Positions 23,694-29,515 of a stretch of 64,000 nt of DNA are shown in pieces. The stretch lies in the sequence record OR757436.1. One strand, 5' to 3'. Position 1 is the first letter of the stretch; the number at the start of each line of letters is the position of its first letter. The DNA comes from Escherichia phage vB-EcoP-XT73. The position numbers were made by a program, and so were the translations under genes. Below the pieces are notes generated by a model. The model was not told the DNA's origin. It searched no databases and saw nothing but the letters and a program-made list of their open reading frames with translations.

Positions 23694-23912
23694 TTAAGGT
23701 AATATCTTTCTCAGAGCGTTAGATTCAGCATCAGGACAAATAACAACTAAGTTATTTTGAATTATTCTCTGCTTACATTGAGAACTAAGTTTCTCTACTG
23801 GAGCAGGGATATTTACTAATGGGTGAACTGCACCTACAGGAACTGCGGTCGACACCACAACACCTGCACCTAAACACACCAAACCATATGCAGCTTGTTT
23901 CATCATTTTCAT
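23694..23912 (-). CDS. small membrane protein, candidate holin
   Basis: GGAGA RBS; one hydrophobic segment then a hydrophilic C-terminus; immediately upstream of the lysozyme gene. Confidence 0.4.
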   Translation of the reverse strand: MKMMKQAAYGLVCLGAGVVVSTAVPVGAVHPLVNIPAPVEKLSSQCKQRIIQNNLVVICPDAESNALRKILP

Positions 23913-24027: not shown

Positions 24028-27000
24028 TCATATCAATCCATAGATGATGTTGTGAAGAACACACCCCCCAACTGCGCCACCTATGTTGAAATTAATTTCA
24101 GCCTTACTGGACCCTGGAGGAACTGAATCAATAACAGCATAGAAACTGAACGAGTTGTTACTAGGTATGTAATATCCAATAGACTCAGAAACTGCATTAC
24201 CTGCTGAATCTAGAAACCTAATAGATGCTAGTGTAGTGGTTGTATTCTTAGCCCAAAAACCAAACTGAAAGTATCTTCCGGGATGACACTCACTCACTGA
24301 TTGGGTGAAGTTTGCCGAGCTAGTCGTATCTGGGACACCAAAAGAGAATGATGTGTTAAACATAGGAGACGAACTCGGAACATCATTGGGTTGAGAAACT
24401 GACACTACCCCTGATCCTGTTTGACTAAATGTCCAGTTAGATGTATTTAAGAATTGCCCGGAACCATTACTAAGACTATTAATGTAAGGGCTTACAATAG
24501 ATCCAAGATCCCACCTACTTAAGACAAAACCAGCTCTAGGGTAACATCCGTTAGACACAACTCTCTTACTATCACCGCCGATGAGTTGGCGAGTAGGGAA
24601 ACCAGTGGCTAGAGTATTGTTGCCATACAGAGGTAGAGAGCAGTTTGTCAGAGAAACAAAACCATCCCCATTACTTACTATAGGGACAGAACTAAAACCT
24701 ACAGGGACCAAAATTGTCGAATCTTTTATGCTCAATCTCGAACTACCATTAACAGAAAAAGAAACAAAAGACTGATCCGGTTGATACTCAATGTTCCCAT
24801 TAGAAAAAACAACTGTGGCGTTGTCTGTCATTATAATGGTTGGGTCAAAATATCCAGACTTTTTCCCAGCAGGAAGTGAACACGTATCAAAGATGAATTG
24901 TCCATTCTCAAAAGTAAAAGGTCCTCCGTTATCCACGCACCAGCAGTGATTGAACTTTATAACTTCTCCAGAGTTCGCTCTTGATTTAAAAACAACCGTG
25001 TCCGTAAAGCTTCTACTTATTGCACATTTGTCAAAAAGGATCCTATATGAATTATCAAGGAATTCAAGACCAGCTGTTGAGATAAAACCACAATTTTCTA
25101 TCCGAACTTCCGACACCTCCCCACTATCAGTCCCTCCAATTACAACCTTTCTGGCACCTAGACCAACAAAGGACACTCCTGATATCTTAGCTGTTGAAGA
25201 AATCGAATCTCTAAGCCCATAATCTGTGTTTGAATTTATAATCTTCAAGAAATATTGACCTGTTGCTCCAGCCCCTTCCTGAAGCTTACAATTATTATAG
25301 CCTATCAAGGCTCCTTTAGAAACGTCAATAGCTATCTCAGATAATACGGATCCAGAAGTTGGAACTATACAATCGTAACCAGAGGAGTTCACTTTGTTGA
25401 TATAAACAGCAATATCCCCGCTGCCAGTGTAGCCTGCATCAAACACAGAAGCTTCTCCAGAGAATAGCAACCTCTTCCATTTTACAGAAACTCCACTGAA
25501 AACCACCACCCCATCAGCTGTTTCTGAATTGTCTATTGCTACAAACACACCCCCTCCCATATTAGCCCCTTCGACATAAGATCTTACAAAGACTTTGTCG
25601 CCTACAGAAGCTCCCTCTAAGGTCTGAAGTTGTTCAATAGAGGGGAGATCTCCAATAAGATTAAACCCTGTAGGCAGGCCTAGTTCTTGAGAGACCACAT
25701 TAGATACCTGACCTAATGCCACTGCTTCGTCACTCTCAACGGCGTTTGGTATACGTATAGGTTGAGAAAAAGTTACCTTATTTGTCATCGAAGTAATATC
25801 TGAGTTAGCCCCACTCTTAGCCGCAACCAGTGCGAGCCTTGCCGTGTCCGGAGAAGAGGCTCCTGTACCACCTTTCGAAATAGGAACAATATTTTCTACA
25901 GAAACATCACCTAATCCTAAATTAGATCTAGCAATAGTAGTATTAATTGCTCCTGTACCACCTTTCGAAATAGGAACAATATTTTCTACAGAAACATCAC
26001 CTAATCCTAAATTAGATCTAGCAATAGTAGTATTAATTGCTCCTGTACCACCTTTCGAAATAGGAACAATATTTTCTACAGAAACATCACCTAATCCTAA
26101 ATTAGATCTAGCAATAGTAGTATTAATTGCTCCTGTACCACCTTTCGAAATAGGAACAATATTTTCTACAGAAACATCACCTAATCCTAAATTAGATCTA
26201 GACCCCTCTGCCGTGGAAGAACCCGTACCTCCTTGGAGCAGAGAGAGAGGTGTGGTTAGGCCTGAGAGGGAGGTAATATCTGAGTTAGAGCCACTCTTAG
26301 CTGCACCGGTAATCTGCTCAACAGTATAGTCTCCGGCCTGCGGTGATACAACACCTGTCCGTGAGTTAAAACTGGAAACCACCTGTAAAGAAACTTCTCC
26401 TGTTTGAGCAACACCCCCATTAAGAGATACTGACCGAACAGAGGGGATTAGATTAGCAATGTCAACCATTGAGGTTCTATACAGCCCACCAGAGTCCTTA
26501 TCTACGAAAAAACCATAATCATCCGACACAGGAATACCAACAGGAGTTTCCCCAATGTCTGAAATTGTACCATCTGTTCCGTCACGACCCGGCTTCCCTT
26601 CTGGAATACCAAAAGAGAATACACCAGTTGTATTGTCATAGGAACCCGTTGCCAAACTACCTGGGGGTAGTAGCGTCGTCTGTACCGTCATATTAGAAAT
26701 AATATCAAGCTGTTCTAGGACTTGCTGCGTTGCTTCTCTTGAAAGATCTGTAGCTGCATTTGTATTGTCAATAGCCTGTCCCGTAGACTGAATAAGACCT
26801 AGAAGAGTCTGATTCTGTGCTTCAAAGTCTTCTTTAAGTTGCTTAATGTCAGACTCTAGCAGGAACCCTTGAGCGTATAGACGTTCTACCTCAGCAAGAA
26901 TCTCATCTACTGAAGAATATTTAGTCTGGGATAACAGCGCCCAATATTTAGCATCAGCTGCATACTCAGCCGCTGATTTATAAGCACCAATTGATCCTTC

Positions 27001-27063
27001 TGTAGCACCAAATTGGCCTACATTATTCACCGCTGTAGGTGCTGAATTGTTGTAACTGATCAT
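24028..27063 (-). CDS. tailspike / tail fiber with collagen-like motif, 30-aa tandem repeats and beta-helix-like C-terminal domain (possible depolymerase)
   Basis: EGKPGRDGTDG; four copies of SNLGLGDVSVENIVPISKGGTGAINTTIAR; C-terminal half has Asn/Cys-rich repeats suggestive of a parallel beta-helix. Confidence 0.7.
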   Translation of the reverse strand: MISYNNSAPTAVNNVGQFGATEGSIGAYKSAAEYAADAKYWALLSQTKYSSVDEILAEVERLYAQGFLLESDIKQLKEDFEAQNQTLLGLIQSTGQAIDNTNAATDLSREATQQVLEQLDIISNMTVQTTLLPPGSLATGSYDNTTGVFSFGIPEGKPGRDGTDGTISDIGETPVGIPVSDDYGFFVDKDSGGLYRTSMVDIANLIPSVRSVSLNGGVAQTGEVSLQVVSSFNSRTGVVSPQAGDYTVEQITGAAKSGSNSDITSLSGLTTPLSLLQGGTGSSTAEGSRSNLGLGDVSVENIVPISKGGTGAINTTIARSNLGLGDVSVENIVPISKGGTGAINTTIARSNLGLGDVSVENIVPISKGGTGAINTTIARSNLGLGDVSVENIVPISKGGTGASSPDTARLALVAAKSGANSDITSMTNKVTFSQPIRIPNAVESDEAVALGQVSNVVSQELGLPTGFNLIGDLPSIEQLQTLEGASVGDKVFVRSYVEGANMGGGVFVAIDNSETADGVVVFSGVSVKWKRLLFSGEASVFDAGYTGSGDIAVYINKVNSSGYDCIVPTSGSVLSEIAIDVSKGALIGYNNCKLQEGAGATGQYFLKIINSNTDYGLRDSISSTAKISGVSFVGLGARKVVIGGTDSGEVSEVRIENCGFISTAGLEFLDNSYRILFDKCAISRSFTDTVVFKSRANSGEVIKFNHCWCVDNGGPFTFENGQFIFDTCSLPAGKKSGYFDPTIIMTDNATVVFSNGNIEYQPDQSFVSFSVNGSSRLSIKDSTILVPVGFSSVPIVSNGDGFVSLTNCSLPLYGNNTLATGFPTRQLIGGDSKRVVSNGCYPRAGFVLSRWDLGSIVSPYINSLSNGSGQFLNTSNWTFSQTGSGVVSVSQPNDVPSSSPMFNTSFSFGVPDTTSSANFTQSVSECHPGRYFQFGFWAKNTTTTLASIRFLDSAGNAVSESIGYYIPSNNSFSFYAVIDSVPPGSSKAEINFNIGGAVGGCVLHNIIYGLI
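25861..26201. repeat. perfect 90-bp tandem repeat, about 3.8 copies, inside the tailspike gene
   Basis: Unit TCCTGTACCACC...TATTAATTGC repeats identically at 25861, 25951, 26041 and partially at 26131. Confidence 0.9.
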
Positions 27064-27072
27064 ATTATCTCC

Positions 27073-27825
27073 TTATACACGAGAAGTACGAATACCATAA
27101 ATATCAGGCAAGCTGCTCTGAAGCCGAGTCATGTTATTCGGAATTGCGATAGGTGAACCTGAGTACTCTTGTTTCTTATTCTGCTCTACCATTTCATCAA
27201 GGATAGCTTTTCCTAATGCTGACCATTTCTGAACTCCGTTGTCATCTTGAACAAACAAGCAAGCATGACGTAGAGTAAAGTACAGAAGAAGTTCTGGTGC
27301 GATAGTAAGAATAGCACTAGTGTCTGTGTCTTCATGGAATTCCGGTGGGTCTGCATAATAACTAAGAATTACTGAGTTTTCTGCTGGAATCAAAGGACTT
27401 CCATCATCAGGGTAATACGGAGTGTCTGCTTCGATGCTAGGATAGAAAATGAAACGACTACCGAAACGAGCAAAGTTAACAGGTTGATTGTTCCAATGAG
27501 ATGGGTTAATTGTTCCATGCTGTCTACGATAGCTAATCTCTTCAGGAGATGTTACTTGGAAGATTGTACCATCTTTGGCTCTCATCATCCATTGAGCTTC
27601 TAAGTAATCAGGAGGAATGTAAGCTACTCCATCTTTAATATCTAAATACACTTCTTTTTCCAGAGGAGGGATACGTAAATTACGATAAATCTCTTTCTCT
27701 GCAAAGTTAATAAAGTTTGGAATTTGATTAACAAATTCGTCATCGTCCCTATCTGCCCAGAGGGCCACGGCCTTCTTTAGCCACCCATAGGTATTGATGG
27801 GGTATTGAACATCTGGCATTGCCAT
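27073..27825 (-). CDS. structural protein (possible head-tail adaptor)
   Basis: Strong RBS; lies between the capsid and tail genes. Confidence 0.45.
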   Translation of the reverse strand: MAMPDVQYPINTYGWLKKAVALWADRDDDEFVNQIPNFINFAEKEIYRNLRIPPLEKEVYLDIKDGVAYIPPDYLEAQWMMRAKDGTIFQVTSPEEISYRRQHGTINPSHWNNQPVNFARFGSRFIFYPSIEADTPYYPDDGSPLIPAENSVILSYYADPPEFHEDTDTSAILTIAPELLLYFTLRHACLFVQDDNGVQKWSALGKAILDEMVEQNKKQEYSGSPIAIPNNMTRLQSSLPDIYGIRTSRV

Positions 27826-27892
27826 AGGTTGTCCTCCTTGTTATATGTAGACAAAGAATATACATTACACACTAGCTTGTATAGGTCTTAAA

Positions 27893-27921
27893 ACGAAAAA
27901 ACCCCGCCCGAAGGCAGGGTC
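27893..27921 (-). terminator. intrinsic terminator downstream of the capsid region
   Basis: On the - strand: ACCCTGCC-TTCG-GGCGGGGT then TTTTTTCGTTTT. Confidence 0.55.
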
Positions 27922-27926
27922 TAATT

Positions 27927-28468
27927 TTAAGCAGCAGGTGTTACACCTGTGAATTCACAAGTGGCTGTTACAAGAGGTTTAGTCTCGTGTGTAGCTGTAA
28001 CAGAGACTGCACCCGTAGCAGTATCAGCAAGAGTCAAAAGACCAGCTGCACTAACAGTGCCCGCTTCCGGAGGAGTTACCTCAAAAGTATAGTCACTTCC
28101 GGTAGAGTTTGTTGCTGTAAACATAGTAGAGAATGCGGTTGTTGATCCACCCACCTTCCCTGAAATCGGACCTCGGCTAACAAGGGTAGGTTCAGGGTCA
28201 GCAATAGCTGAGATCGTAGATGTACCGGATTTACCACCTTTAGTAGCTTTCACTGTAATCGGGGTTTCTTGCGACGCACTCGGTGCAGTATACAGTCCAG
28301 AAACAGAAATAGCCCCACCACCCTCAACGGACCAAACAAATCCAGTTGTTGATGTGGAGCTATCACTCATTTGTGCTGTAGCTGTAAACTGCTGAGTAGC
28401 CCCCGTCGGAAGGCTTGCAACCGACGAAGGACTAACAGTTATGGTATCTACTGTTACGCCGCCACTGC
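27927..28468 (-). CDS. Ig-like (Big_2) domain ORF in the -1 frame of the capsid gene; likely a C-terminal capsid extension rather than an independent gene
   Basis: Frame is open from inside the capsid gene; the Ig-like sequence (TVDTITVSPSSVASLPTGATQQFTATAQ...) begins upstream of the annotated ATG; no SD before ATG 28370. Confidence 0.5.
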
Positions 28469-29515
28469 CTTTCCCGCAGCAGTGAACAGAACACCGGAAG
28501 CATACGGGTTGCGGTGACGCAGACCAACTTCCATCTCAATCATCCATTTTTCGTAAGAACCATCTTTAGCCAGTTCAGTACGTTTCGGAGCACGCAGAAC
28601 CATCTGAGTCCAGTCAGCGCTACGGAAGAAGTAAACTGCATCGGTAGGCATCCAACGGTTAACGATGATTTTGTAGCTCTGGCCCAGCGGGTCAGTGATG
28701 CTGTTAACTTCGTAAATGAACTGCTTGGTGTTTTCAAAGATACGCTTACGTGAACCCTGAGTATTTTCTTGCAGACCAGCGAAGATCTTAGCATGAGCCG
28801 GGTTAATCATGATGATATCTGCTTCAGAACCAGCGGTGTACAGTTGCAGAGTCATATCAAAGATATCTGCTTCATCAAAGCCGATGTTAGTAGCCGGGTT
28901 AGAAGCGTTCTGTGCAACTTTAACAGTGATTGCACCAGTATCCGGGTCAGCAGGACCATTCTTGGTCTTGTCAACAACGCCGCCAGCCAGACCACCGTGA
29001 GCACACAGGAACTGGAATGCACCAGTCTTACGAGCTGCATGGGTGTCGTTCTTGCCAATCTGATCTGGGTCAGCGGCAGAGTTAGTCAGGTATTGGTCAG
29101 CCAGAACGTCGGTACGAGCCTGACCAGACAGAAGGATTTTCTCGAGGTCACGCTTGATCTCTTTACCTTTCTTCTCCAGCTGGTACATCAGTTCGCGACC
29201 ACGACCGTAGTTAGCGGTGGTGTTAGCAGTGTCAGAAACACGAACAACCTTACGCAGAATCTGAGTAACGTTAGACTTGATAACAGTCGGTTTCATTTCG
29301 CCGTCTTCAGCACGAGAGCCTTCGACGTGTGCGTTATTACCATCAACGCTTGCCAGTGCATCGGTCTGCCAGCTAAAGATAGTCTGGTTGATAGACTCTT
29401 TACCGGTCATGGATACGAACGGGGTATCCTGAGGGGACAGAACAGAAATCCAGTTAGCAAAAGAAAGTTTTTTACCATTCTGGTCATACGATACAAATAA
29501 AGTTGGATTAGCCAT
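28454..29515 (-). CDS. major capsid protein
   Basis: 353 aa directly downstream of the scaffold-like gene; strong RBS; followed by terminator; codon usage typical of a highly expressed gene. Family not confirmed by search. Confidence 0.65.
   Translation of the reverse strand: MANPTLFVSYDQNGKKLSFANWISVLSPQDTPFVSMTGKESINQTIFSWQTDALASVDGNNAHVEGSRAEDGEMKPTVIKSNVTQILRKVVRVSDTANTTANYGRGRELMYQLEKKGKEIKRDLEKILLSGQARTDVLADQYLTNSAADPDQIGKNDTHAARKTGAFQFLCAHGGLAGGVVDKTKNGPADPDTGAITVKVAQNASNPATNIGFDEADIFDMTLQLYTAGSEADIIMINPAHAKIFAGLQENTQGSRKRIFENTKQFIYEVNSITDPLGQSYKIIVNRWMPTDAVYFFRSADWTQMVLRAPKRTELAKDGSYEKWMIEMEVGLRHRNPYASGVLFTAAGKAVAA
28469..28475 (-). other. candidate -1 programmed ribosomal frameshift site (G GGA AAG)
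   Basis: X XXY YYZ heptamer five codons before the capsid stop; the -1 frame continues without stops into the Ig-like domain. Confidence 0.45.

What the first reader, a model, noticed from the sequence alone, without database searches (positions are those of the whole stretch)
25861..26201. Perfect 90-bp tandem repeats (3.8 copies) inside the tailspike gene
Identical in-frame 30-aa repeats imply very recent expansion or ongoing copy-number variation by slipped recombination, which would change fiber length and possibly host range. It is also a site where assemblies can collapse or expand copies.
Basis: seen in the sequence. Interest (0 to 1): 0.45.

Follow-up and report, generated by a model that had tools for sequence, protein, structure and literature searches.

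The report
Amplified shaft module in phage tailspike-fibre
A 90-bp stretch coding for one 30-residue building block of a coliphage tail fibre is repeated almost four times without a single change. This lengthens the stalk that carries an O78-sugar-cutting tailspike, and the exact copy number in the deposited genomes cannot be trusted.

Summary
Window 25859-26201 holds 3.8 head-to-tail copies of a 90-bp unit at 100% identity. The array is in frame inside the minus-strand gene 24028-27063 (1011 aa).

The window is Escherichia phage vB-EcoP-XT73, a Kuravirus. The gene is a chimera:
- an N-terminal virion anchor like SU10 gp12;
- a stalk built of modules that each end in GGTG;
- a C-terminal head like CBA120 TSP4, which cleaves O78 O-antigen.

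The repeat unit is exactly one 30-aa stalk module (ARSNLGLG..VPISKGGTGA). This module is widespread in phage and pyocin fibres. It occurs zero to three times, as diverged copies, in the other kuravirus fibres surveyed. So this is a recent amplification of an ordinary fibre module.

The sister phages carry the same unit. XT32 has 5.8 copies. XT18 has an array broken by a 31-bp partial unit that frameshifts the gene, which is almost certainly a misassembly. Real copy-number variation and assembly error therefore cannot be separated. Only two or more copies are certain.

A change in stalk length is plausible. A change in host range is unsupported: the two sister isolates are both recorded on E. 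coli O78 (the window's own host record was not seen), and specificity lies in the head.

Verdict: an ordinary kind of feature, a new member of a known kind, of modest interest.

The parts
24028..27063 (-). Gene for the long tail fibre / tailspike protein (1011 aa; WPK42100.1 of Escherichia phage vB-EcoP-XT73)
   Evidence: ORF listed. Exact protein look-up. PHROG tail and tail-fibre families. PDB matches. The gene lies directly downstream of the SU10-type adaptor gene 27073-27825.
26377..27063 (-). N-terminal virion anchor and proximal fibre part (aa 1-229), homologous to SU10 gp12
   Evidence: phmmer hit to PDB 7z47_D, aa 1-229 against 1-226, E 9.6e-96. The SU10 paper shows that the gp12 N-terminus docks on the adaptor ring (PMC9509320).
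26202..26305 (-). 40-aa stalk module just upstream of the array (AAKSGSNSDITSLSGLTTPLSLLQGGTGSSTAEGS)
   Evidence: Protein read-out. The same module occurs in SU10 gp12 aa 468-500 and in many fibres.
25859..26201 (-). The array: 3.8 perfect copies of the 90-bp unit. It encodes aa 288-402, which is four 30-aa GGTG modules. Plus-strand unit phases are 25859-25948, 25949-26038, 26039-26128 and 26129-26201 (partial).
   Evidence: TRF result, sequence, repeat family D1, protein coordinates.
25696..25857 (-). Conserved linker (SSPDTARLALVAAKSGANSDITSMTNKVTFSQPIRIPNAVESDEAVALGQV, aa 403-456) that joins the stalk to the exchangeable head
   Evidence: The same linker precedes different heads in other kuraviruses (L006, L011-L015). 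tblastn hits to O78 phages of other families begin at aa 421-457.
24028..25695 (-). C-terminal tailspike head (aa 457-1011), CBA120 TSP4-like, predicted O78 O-antigen depolymerase
   Evidence: PDB 5w6h_A, E 1.1e-245, aa 449-1011 against 139-697. About 63-68% identity to tailspikes of many O78 phages. TSP4 cleaves O78 O-antigen (PMC8825819).
25790..25825 (.). Downstream copy of a 36-nt direct repeat (codes AAKSGANSDITS) that brackets the array
   Evidence: the repeat finder family D3: 89% identical to 26270-26305, spacing 480 nt, in frame.
26270..26305 (.). Upstream copy of the same 36-nt direct repeat (codes AAKSGSNSDITS)
   Evidence: the repeat finder family D3.

Best explanation
The array is a real and recent tandem amplification of one 30-residue stalk module of the long tail fibre of a Kuravirus.

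What the protein is:
- It is trimeric by homology. It anchors to the adaptor ring through an SU10-gp12-like N-terminus.
- It continues as a stalk assembled from modules that all end in GGTG and restart with A-R-x-N-L-G.
- It ends in an O78-specific tailspike head like CBA120 TSP4.

How the array arose (inferred):
- Adjacent modules share sequence, so unequal homologous recombination or replication slippage duplicates or deletes whole modules in frame.
- In the XT lineage, the single module found at this position in relatives such as ES17 became an array of identical copies.
- Continued unequal exchange keeps the copies identical and can change their number in 90-bp steps.

Likely effect (inferred):
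- Each copy adds 30 residues per chain to the stalk. By analogy with the R-pyocin fibre shaft (93 A for 70 residues), that is roughly 4 nm.
- This moves the enzyme head further from the tail. Receptor specificity should not change.

What is shown and what is not:
- Shown: the array, its reading frame, its identity as one module, the variation in module number among kuraviruses, and the different counts in the three sister records.
- Inferred: the recombination mechanism, the length added per module, and the absence of any effect on specificity.
- My estimate that the XT73 versus XT32 difference (4 versus 6 modules) is biological rather than an assembly artefact is about 0.5. Only two or more copies are certain.
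For: - Perfect array, in frame.
- The unit equals one module. SU10 gp12 aa 468-546 carries the same 40-aa module plus two diverged 30-aa modules.
- Thirteen kuravirus homologues carry 1-5 GGTG motifs, belonging to three module kinds of 30, about 62-64 and 40 aa, in differing order and number.
- At the exact position of the array, the IMG/VR contig L006 has no 30-aa module and ES17 has one. By my hand count the ES17 module matches the XT unit at 18 of 24 positions.
- The module is widespread. 199 homologues were found, in phages and prophages of many genera. Among 78 adjacent-module pairs the median identity is 31%, and only 2 pairs reach 90% or more.
- A profile of the module hits the R1 pyocin fibre 6cl5 (E 4e-5) in the C-terminal part of its Shaft domain. 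It also hits DT57C LtfA, phiM1 gp47 and P7-1 gp92 (PMC6116203).
- The unit-to-unit junction (GGTGA-INTTIA-RSNLG) occurs nowhere in the flanks. At least one junction, and hence at least two copies, must therefore exist in the reads.
- The sister genomes have the same unit with other counts. Outside the array the gene differs from the window by only 4 SNPs. XT32 and XT18 differ from each other by 0 of 4831 and 3 of 2836 positions in the flanks.
- There is an independent second case. TH34 has 2.6 x 90 bp at 99% with a different unit sequence. Its relative TH42 has another module arrangement, and the junctions lie at the shared GGTGGTACAGGTG.
Against: - No reads are available, so the copy number is unverified.
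- XT18's array contains a 31-bp partial unit that splits an essential gene. This shows that assembly failed at this locus in the same sequencing project.
- TH34's array sits 37 bp from a contig end, next to a homopolymer frameshift.
- The inter-unit linker INTTIA differs from both flanks. The array is therefore not a simple duplication of the present flanking sequence. The ancestor must already have had two modules, or the linker changed before amplification.
- The length per module rests on a remote match to the pyocin shaft. The AlphaFold monomer model was uninformative (pLDDT 48).
Confidence: 0.75

Rival explanations
1. The count is an assembly artefact. All three XT phages carry the same array, and the 3.8, 5.8 and about 4.1 copies reflect how a short-read assembler walked a 90-bp loop in its graph. 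In that case the locus shows no variation between isolates.
For: - The arrays (343-523 bp of perfect repeat) are probably longer than the sequencing reads. The platform is unknown, so this is an assumption.
- XT18's array has a 31-bp partial unit joined by a stray G, which frameshifts the gene. That phage was nevertheless propagated on O78, so its deposited array is almost certainly wrong.
- XT32 and XT18 are otherwise identical over 4831 bp and differ at 3 of 2836 bp.
- TH34's similar array lies at a contig end.
Against: - XT73 and XT32 both give intact reading frames with whole numbers of extra units.
- Perfect 90-bp tandem repeats are expected to expand and contract readily during phage replication (general knowledge of repeat instability).
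- Module number demonstrably changes over evolutionary time in this gene, in copies diverged enough to assemble reliably.
Confidence: 0.5
2. The array is a selected, hypervariable 'contingency' locus. Frequent gain and loss of modules within a phage population tunes the reach of the tailspike to the thickness of the O-antigen or capsule layer. It would thereby affect adsorption or the triggering of nozzle formation.
For: - Different counts in near-identical isolates from one source.
- An independent near-perfect array at the same place in TH34.
- In SU10, binding by the long fibre is proposed to prime short-fibre rotation and nozzle formation, so fibre geometry could matter.
Against: - There are no population data and no phenotype.
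- Both sister isolates are recorded on the same host.
- Only 2 of 78 adjacent-module pairs in unrelated fibres are 90% identical or more, so high-identity arrays are rare rather than a general strategy.
- The count differences may be artefacts.
Confidence: 0.12
3. The repeat acts at the DNA or RNA level (a regulatory, packaging or structured-RNA element), and its coding capacity is incidental.
For: None found. The only weak hint is that the unit is more AT-rich (32% GC) than the gene (42%).
Against: - The unit is exactly 30 codons, is in frame, and coincides with a conserved protein module found in hundreds of fibres.
- No Rfam match lies in or near the array. The three weak matches at 27878-27981 are far below their gathering scores.
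- No inverted repeats occur in the gene.
- The plus-strand ORF 25844-26329 is just the antisense of a stop-free repeat.
Confidence: 0.02

Closest known systems
SU10 gp12, the long tail fibre proximal protein of Kuravirus (PDB 7z47 chain D)
   Same: The N-terminal 229 aa are homologous (E 9.6e-96). The gene sits in the same place, directly after the adaptor gene. The same 40-aa NSDITS module and 30-aa ARSNLGLG..GGTG modules are present.
   Different: SU10 has two diverged 30-aa modules, a Phage_tail_C_2 C-terminus and a separate distal protein gp13. Here there are four identical modules, the head is a tailspike fused to the same chain, and the next gene is the holin.
CBA120 tailspike protein 4 (ORF213, PDB 5w6h), which cleaves O78 O-antigen
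   Same: aa 449-1011 align with TSP4 139-697 at E 1e-245 and about 65% identity. The sister phages XT32 and XT18 were isolated on E. coli O78.
   Different: The TSP4 N-terminal baseplate-anchor and assembly domains are replaced by the kuravirus anchor and the modular stalk. TSP4 has no such repeat array.
Shaft domain of R1/R2 pyocin fibres (PDB 6cl5, 6cl6), built of interdigitated 'helix-plus-turn' units
   Same: A profile of the GGTG module matches the C-terminal part of the Shaft (R1 E 4e-5; R2 E 0.01-0.015). The authors note that repeating units allow fibre length to be adjusted (PMC6116203).
   Different: The pyocin fibre has a single copy of this stretch, next to an iron-binding HxH site. 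The similarity is remote and the fold here is not confirmed.
Variable numbers of shaft pseudo-repeats in other viral fibres, for example the adenovirus fibre shaft, and collagen-like repeats in lactococcal and streptococcal phage receptor-binding proteins (own knowledge, not tested here)
   Same: A modular trimeric stalk whose repeat number sets fibre length and changes by recombination.
   Different: Those repeats belong to other sequence families and are usually diverged. Here the copies are identical at the nucleotide level.

Membership tests
Kuravirus (SU10 gp12-type) long tail fibre | N-terminal domain homologous to SU10 gp12, which docks on the adaptor ring | tested here: met
   7z47_D, aa 1-229 against 1-226, E 9.6e-96. 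phrog_10305 tail fibre, E 1.7e-85.
Kuravirus (SU10 gp12-type) long tail fibre | Gene lies directly downstream of the SU10-type adaptor gene, within a SU10-type structural module | tested here: met
   SU10_adaptor (27073-27825) and SU10_MCP (28454-29515) Pfam hits. Same gene order as in XT32, XT18, ES17 and others.
Kuravirus (SU10 gp12-type) long tail fibre | Two-protein fibre, with proximal gp12 plus a separate distal gp13 | tested here: not met
   The next gene downstream is the holin (23694-23912), followed by the lysin. The receptor-binding head is fused to the same chain, as in ES17, FH3 and WFI101126.
CBA120 TSP4-type O78 tailspike | Catalytic and receptor-binding head homologous to TSP4 | tested here: met
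   5w6h_A, E 1.1e-245, covering aa 449-1011.
CBA120 TSP4-type O78 tailspike | O78 O-antigen depolymerase activity | not testable with these tools
   Indirect only. Sister phages XT32 and XT18 were isolated on E. coli O78. The closest homologues are in O78 phages. TSP4 cleaves O78.
CBA120 TSP4-type O78 tailspike | TSP4 N-terminal anchor and assembly domains (TSP4-N) | tested here: not met
   The alignment to 5w6h starts at chain residue 139. The N-terminus matches SU10 gp12 instead.
GGTG-type tail-fibre stalk module (pyocin Shaft-like) | Sequence motif [LVI]-x-[VI]-x-x-GGTG-A-x-T-A-x-x-AR-x-NLG | tested here: met
   Position-by-position frequencies from 174 modules. The unit fits the motif. Adjacent modules in homologues are listed.
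GGTG-type tail-fibre stalk module (pyocin Shaft-like) | Homology to a structurally solved shaft segment | tested here: met
   The profile of alignment A2 hits 6cl5_A (E 4.3e-5), 8hqz_d (2e-6), 8vbx_R (7.5e-9) and 9zd7 (5.5e-8). Of the three structure papers checked, only the pyocin one shows the segment modelled: the DT57C model covers only the LtfA N-terminus and the phiM1 paper does not say. 9zd7 (P7-1 gp92) was not checked.
GGTG-type tail-fibre stalk module (pyocin Shaft-like) | Trimeric, axially stacked fold in which each module adds length | tested here: inconclusive
   The AlphaFold2 monomer model of aa 225-470 has mean pLDDT 48 and shows only a periodic strand pattern.
Variable-number tandem repeat / contingency locus | Identical in-frame tandem units | tested here: met
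Variable-number tandem repeat / contingency locus | Copy number differs among close relatives | tested here: inconclusive
   3.8, 5.8 and a broken 4.1 in XT73, XT32 and XT18. XT18 is visibly misassembled and no reads are available.
Variable-number tandem repeat / contingency locus | Heterogeneity within a population, and a phenotype linked to copy number | not testable with these tools
   Needs reads, PCR or experiments.

The most novel reading that the evidence does not exclude
The array is a genuinely hypervariable length-tuning locus of a phage receptor-binding fibre. Unequal exchange among identical 90-bp modules would produce, at high frequency within a lysate, virions whose O78 tailspikes sit at different distances from the tail. 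Selection on O-antigen or capsule thickness, or on the coupling between long-fibre binding and nozzle deployment in kuraviruses, would then pick among them. The independent near-perfect array in phage TH34 would be a second instance of the same strategy.
Probability: 0.12. Interest if true: 0.55.

Novelty: new member of a known kind. Interest (0 to 1): 0.3.

Why it matters
Practical: this locus is a trap for assembly and annotation in kuravirus genomes that are being proposed for therapy of avian pathogenic E. coli. One of the three deposited sister genomes has its essential fibre gene split here. The copy number in the other two should be checked before the sequences are used for engineering or taxonomy.

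Biological: it is a clean snapshot of how modular fibre stalks grow, by in-frame amplification of one GGTG module. It would also be a convenient natural system for asking whether stalk length matters for tailspike-bearing podoviruses.

It does not reveal a new kind of system.

Tried and rejected
- AlphaFold2 monomer model of aa 225-470: mean pLDDT 48, so it was not used for fold search.
- Exact search for the unit-to-unit junction in JGI metagenome contigs and in IMG/VR: no hits.
- Exact-protein contig look-up for the window protein: nothing on record.
- The 55-aa 'representative' of the window protein's cluster (P0122) is unrelated sequence and was ignored.
- Literature search for XT18, XT32, XT73 or the host strain: only an ICTV taxonomy list, with no paper giving sequencing methods.
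- IMG/VR search for kuravirus fibres gave only five loci, so relatives were fetched one at a time from GenBank phage records.
- Pfam has no family for the module; the only hit, INPP5B_PH, is below its cut-off and spurious.
- Rfam scan around the gene: nothing credible.
- The Kayvirus tandem-repeat paper turned out to concern a genome-terminus repeat, not a fibre.
- DT57C LtfA and phiM1 gp47 contain the module. The DT57C model covers only the LtfA N-terminus, and the phiM1 paper does not say whether the module region is modelled.
- A DNA-level function and the plus-strand ORF 25844-26329 were considered and rejected.
- The low GC of the unit (32% against 42%, z = -1.9) is not unusual enough to argue for a foreign origin.

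Full report
**1. The observation**

Tandem Repeats Finder reports one outstanding array in the window: 25859-26201, period 90, 3.8 copies, 100% matches, no indels, score 686. The next best score in the window is 48. The raw sequence confirms it. The array lies in the minus-strand ORF 24028-27063 (1011 aa) and is in frame. It covers aa 288-402 and encodes RSNLGLGDVSVENIVPISKGGTGAINTTIA three times, followed by a truncated fourth copy ending in GGTGA. The description is otherwise correct.

**2. The genome and the gene**

The flanking genes match SU10_MCP and SU10_adaptor. The exact protein is WPK42100.1 of Escherichia phage vB-EcoP-XT73. Its closest genomes are XT32 and XT18, two kuraviruses from chicken-farm sewage isolated on E. 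coli O78.

The protein is a chimera:
- aa 1-229 match the SU10 long tail fibre proximal protein gp12 (PDB 7z47_D, E 9.6e-96). The N-terminus of gp12 docks on the adaptor ring (PMC9509320).
- aa 449-1011 match CBA120 tailspike 4 (5w6h, E 1e-245). They are 63-68% identical to tailspikes of many O78 phages from unrelated families. TSP4 cleaves the O78 O-antigen (PMC8825819).

Unlike SU10, this phage has no separate distal fibre protein. The next genes are the holin and the lysin.

**3. What the unit is**

Between anchor and head lies a stalk made of modules that each end in GGTG. In the window these are:
- one 40-aa module (AAKSGSNSDITSLSGLTTPLSLLQGGTG...);
- four 30-aa modules, which form the array;
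- a linker (ARLALVAAKSGANSDITSMTNKVTF...) that precedes the head.

SU10 gp12 carries the same 40-aa module and two diverged 30-aa modules at aa 468-546.

I translated the homologous gene from 13 other kuraviruses. They carry 1-5 GGTG motifs belonging to three module kinds (30, about 62-64 and 40 aa), and the order and number differ between phages. XT32, with seven motifs, has the most. At the exact position of the array, the IMG/VR contig L006 has no 30-aa module. ES17 has one (RTKLGLGLVSTESIVPITKGGTGA), which by my hand count matches the XT unit at 18 of 24 positions.

The module is widespread. A search with aa 1-458 returned 199 homologues, many from prophages of Enterobacter, Dickeya, Rhizobium and from metagenomes. 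Their modules have 30-, 40- and 45-aa spacing. Across 78 adjacent-module pairs outside the XT phages the median identity is 31%, and only 2 pairs reach 90% or more. Perfect copies are therefore unusual, while the module itself is ordinary.

Pfam has no family for the module. A profile of 66 modules hits these solved structures:
- SU10 gp12;
- phiM1 gp47;
- P7-1 gp92;
- DT57C LtfA;
- the R1 pyocin fibre 6cl5 (E 4e-5; R2 E 0.01-0.015).

The pyocin match falls in the C-terminal part of the Shaft domain. That domain is described as three interdigitated chains built of helix-plus-turn units, 93 A long for 70 residues (PMC6116203). The DT57C model covers only the N-terminus of LtfA, and the phiM1 paper does not say whether the module region is modelled. 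The P7-1 structure was not checked. My AlphaFold monomer model was uninformative (pLDDT 48).

**4. Copy number in relatives**

XT32 carries the same unit 5.8 times, and its gene is 1071 aa, exactly 60 aa longer.

XT18 has two units, then a 31-bp partial unit joined by an extra G, then 1.8 units. This frameshifts the gene, and the record annotates it as two CDSs. XT18 was propagated on O78, so it needs its tailspike attached to the virion. This array is almost certainly a misassembly.

Outside the array the window differs from both sisters by 3 mismatches in the 4831 bp on one side, only one of them (25600) inside the fibre gene. In the rest of the gene on the other side it differs by 3 more. 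XT32 and XT18 differ from each other by 0 of 4831 and 3 of 2836 positions.

So three near-identical genomes from one project show three different arrays, and one of them is demonstrably wrong. The unit-to-unit junction (GGTGA-INTTIA-RSNLG) occurs nowhere in the flanks, so at least two copies must be real. The exact count cannot be verified without reads. I found no paper describing these phages or their sequencing, and no other public sequence containing the junction.

**5. An independent case**

Escherichia virus TH34 (MT446407.1) has 2.6 x 90 bp at 99% identity at the corresponding place in its gp12 gene. Its unit has a different sequence. Its relative TH42 instead has a 62-aa module followed by two diverged 30-aa modules. 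The rearrangement junctions coincide with the shared GGTGGTACAGGTG that encodes GGTG.

This supports recombination at module boundaries as the mechanism. It carries the same caveat, however: the TH34 array lies 37 bp from a contig end, next to a homopolymer frameshift.

**6. Mechanism**

The best-supported reading has three parts:
- Adjacent modules share sequence. Unequal homologous recombination or slippage duplicates or deletes whole modules in frame.
- In the XT lineage one module was amplified recently, and continued exchange keeps the copies identical.
- Each copy adds 30 residues per chain to the trimeric stalk. By the pyocin analogy this is about 4 nm, so 4 versus 6 modules would differ by about 8 nm. 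This figure is an inference.

Specificity should be unaffected, because it resides in the TSP4-like head. Both sister isolates are recorded on the same O78 host; the window's own host record was not seen.

A 36-nt direct repeat (89% identical, spacing 480 nt, in frame) brackets the array. It could mediate loss of the whole block.

The inter-unit linker INTTIA differs from both flanks. The array is therefore not a simple duplication of today's flanking sequence. The ancestor probably already had two modules that were later homogenised.

**7. Rivals**

- Copy-number differences are assembly artefacts: about even odds.
- The array is a selected hypervariable contingency locus that tunes fibre reach: possible, with no supporting data, about 0.12.
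- A DNA- or RNA-level function: rejected. There is no Rfam match and there are no inverted repeats. The unit coincides with a protein module, and the plus-strand ORF 25844-26329 is an antisense by-product.

**8. Verdict**

- Recent expansion: yes.
- An assembly hazard: yes, and demonstrated in XT18.
- Real copy-number variation: unresolved.
- An effect on host range: unsupported.

The feature is a new member of a known kind, a tandem amplification of a common fibre-stalk module. Interest is modest.

Noticed in passing
window about 27810 (between 27073-27825 and 27927-28370); L002 6816-7328: XT32 and XT18 carry a 499-bp insertion here that the XT18 record annotates as an HNH endonuclease CDS. 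It overlaps the start of the adaptor gene. The window (XT73) lacks it. This is a presence/absence polymorphism of a likely homing endonuclease among near-identical phages.
   Followed up: partly
L002 5012-5072 (XT18, OR757434.1): A 31-bp partial repeat unit plus a stray G inside the array frameshifts the fibre gene into two annotated CDSs ('tail protein' and 'tail fiber protein'). This is most likely a misassembly in the deposited 'complete genome'.
   Followed up: yes
L003 4474-4710 (TH34, MT446407.1) and L020 2830-3300 (TH42, MT446413.1): There is an independent near-perfect 90-bp x 2.6 array in the same gene of another kuravirus. Its relative has a different module arrangement, with junctions at the GGTG-coding GGTGGTACAGGTG. 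TH34 also has a 1-nt homopolymer frameshift, and the gene runs to within 37 bp of the contig end.
   Followed up: partly
window 25790-25825 and 26270-26305: A 36-nt direct repeat (89% identical, coding AAKSG[A/S]NSDITS) brackets the array at an in-frame spacing of 480 nt. It is a potential substrate for deleting the whole block.
   Followed up: no
L016 (phage 1-6af), L019 (myPSH2311): The gp12-type fibre gene is split (182 + 1040 aa) or left unannotated in other deposited kuravirus genomes. This suggests that frameshift errors are common in this gene across records.
   Followed up: no
window 25696-25857 (aa 403-456): The linker ARLALVAAKSGxNSDITSMTNKVTF..PDAV..A..L.QL is conserved in front of unrelated heads in different kuraviruses: a TSP4-like head here, a protein annotated as pectate-lyase superfamily in WFI101126, and a head with a precomputed PF03372 hit in P0001. 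Homology to O78 siphovirus and myovirus tailspikes starts inside it. It looks like the junction used for swapping heads.
   Followed up: partly
window 25844-26329 (+): A 161-aa plus-strand ORF runs through the array. It is the antisense of a stop-free repeat and not a gene.
   Followed up: yes
window 47781-47855 (+): A single tRNA-Arg (TCT) gene is present in the phage genome.
   Followed up: no
window 25859-25948: The repeat unit is 32% GC, against 42% for the gene and for the window. That puts it in the lowest 4.6% of 90-bp windows (z = -1.9), which is mildly unusual only.
   Followed up: yes
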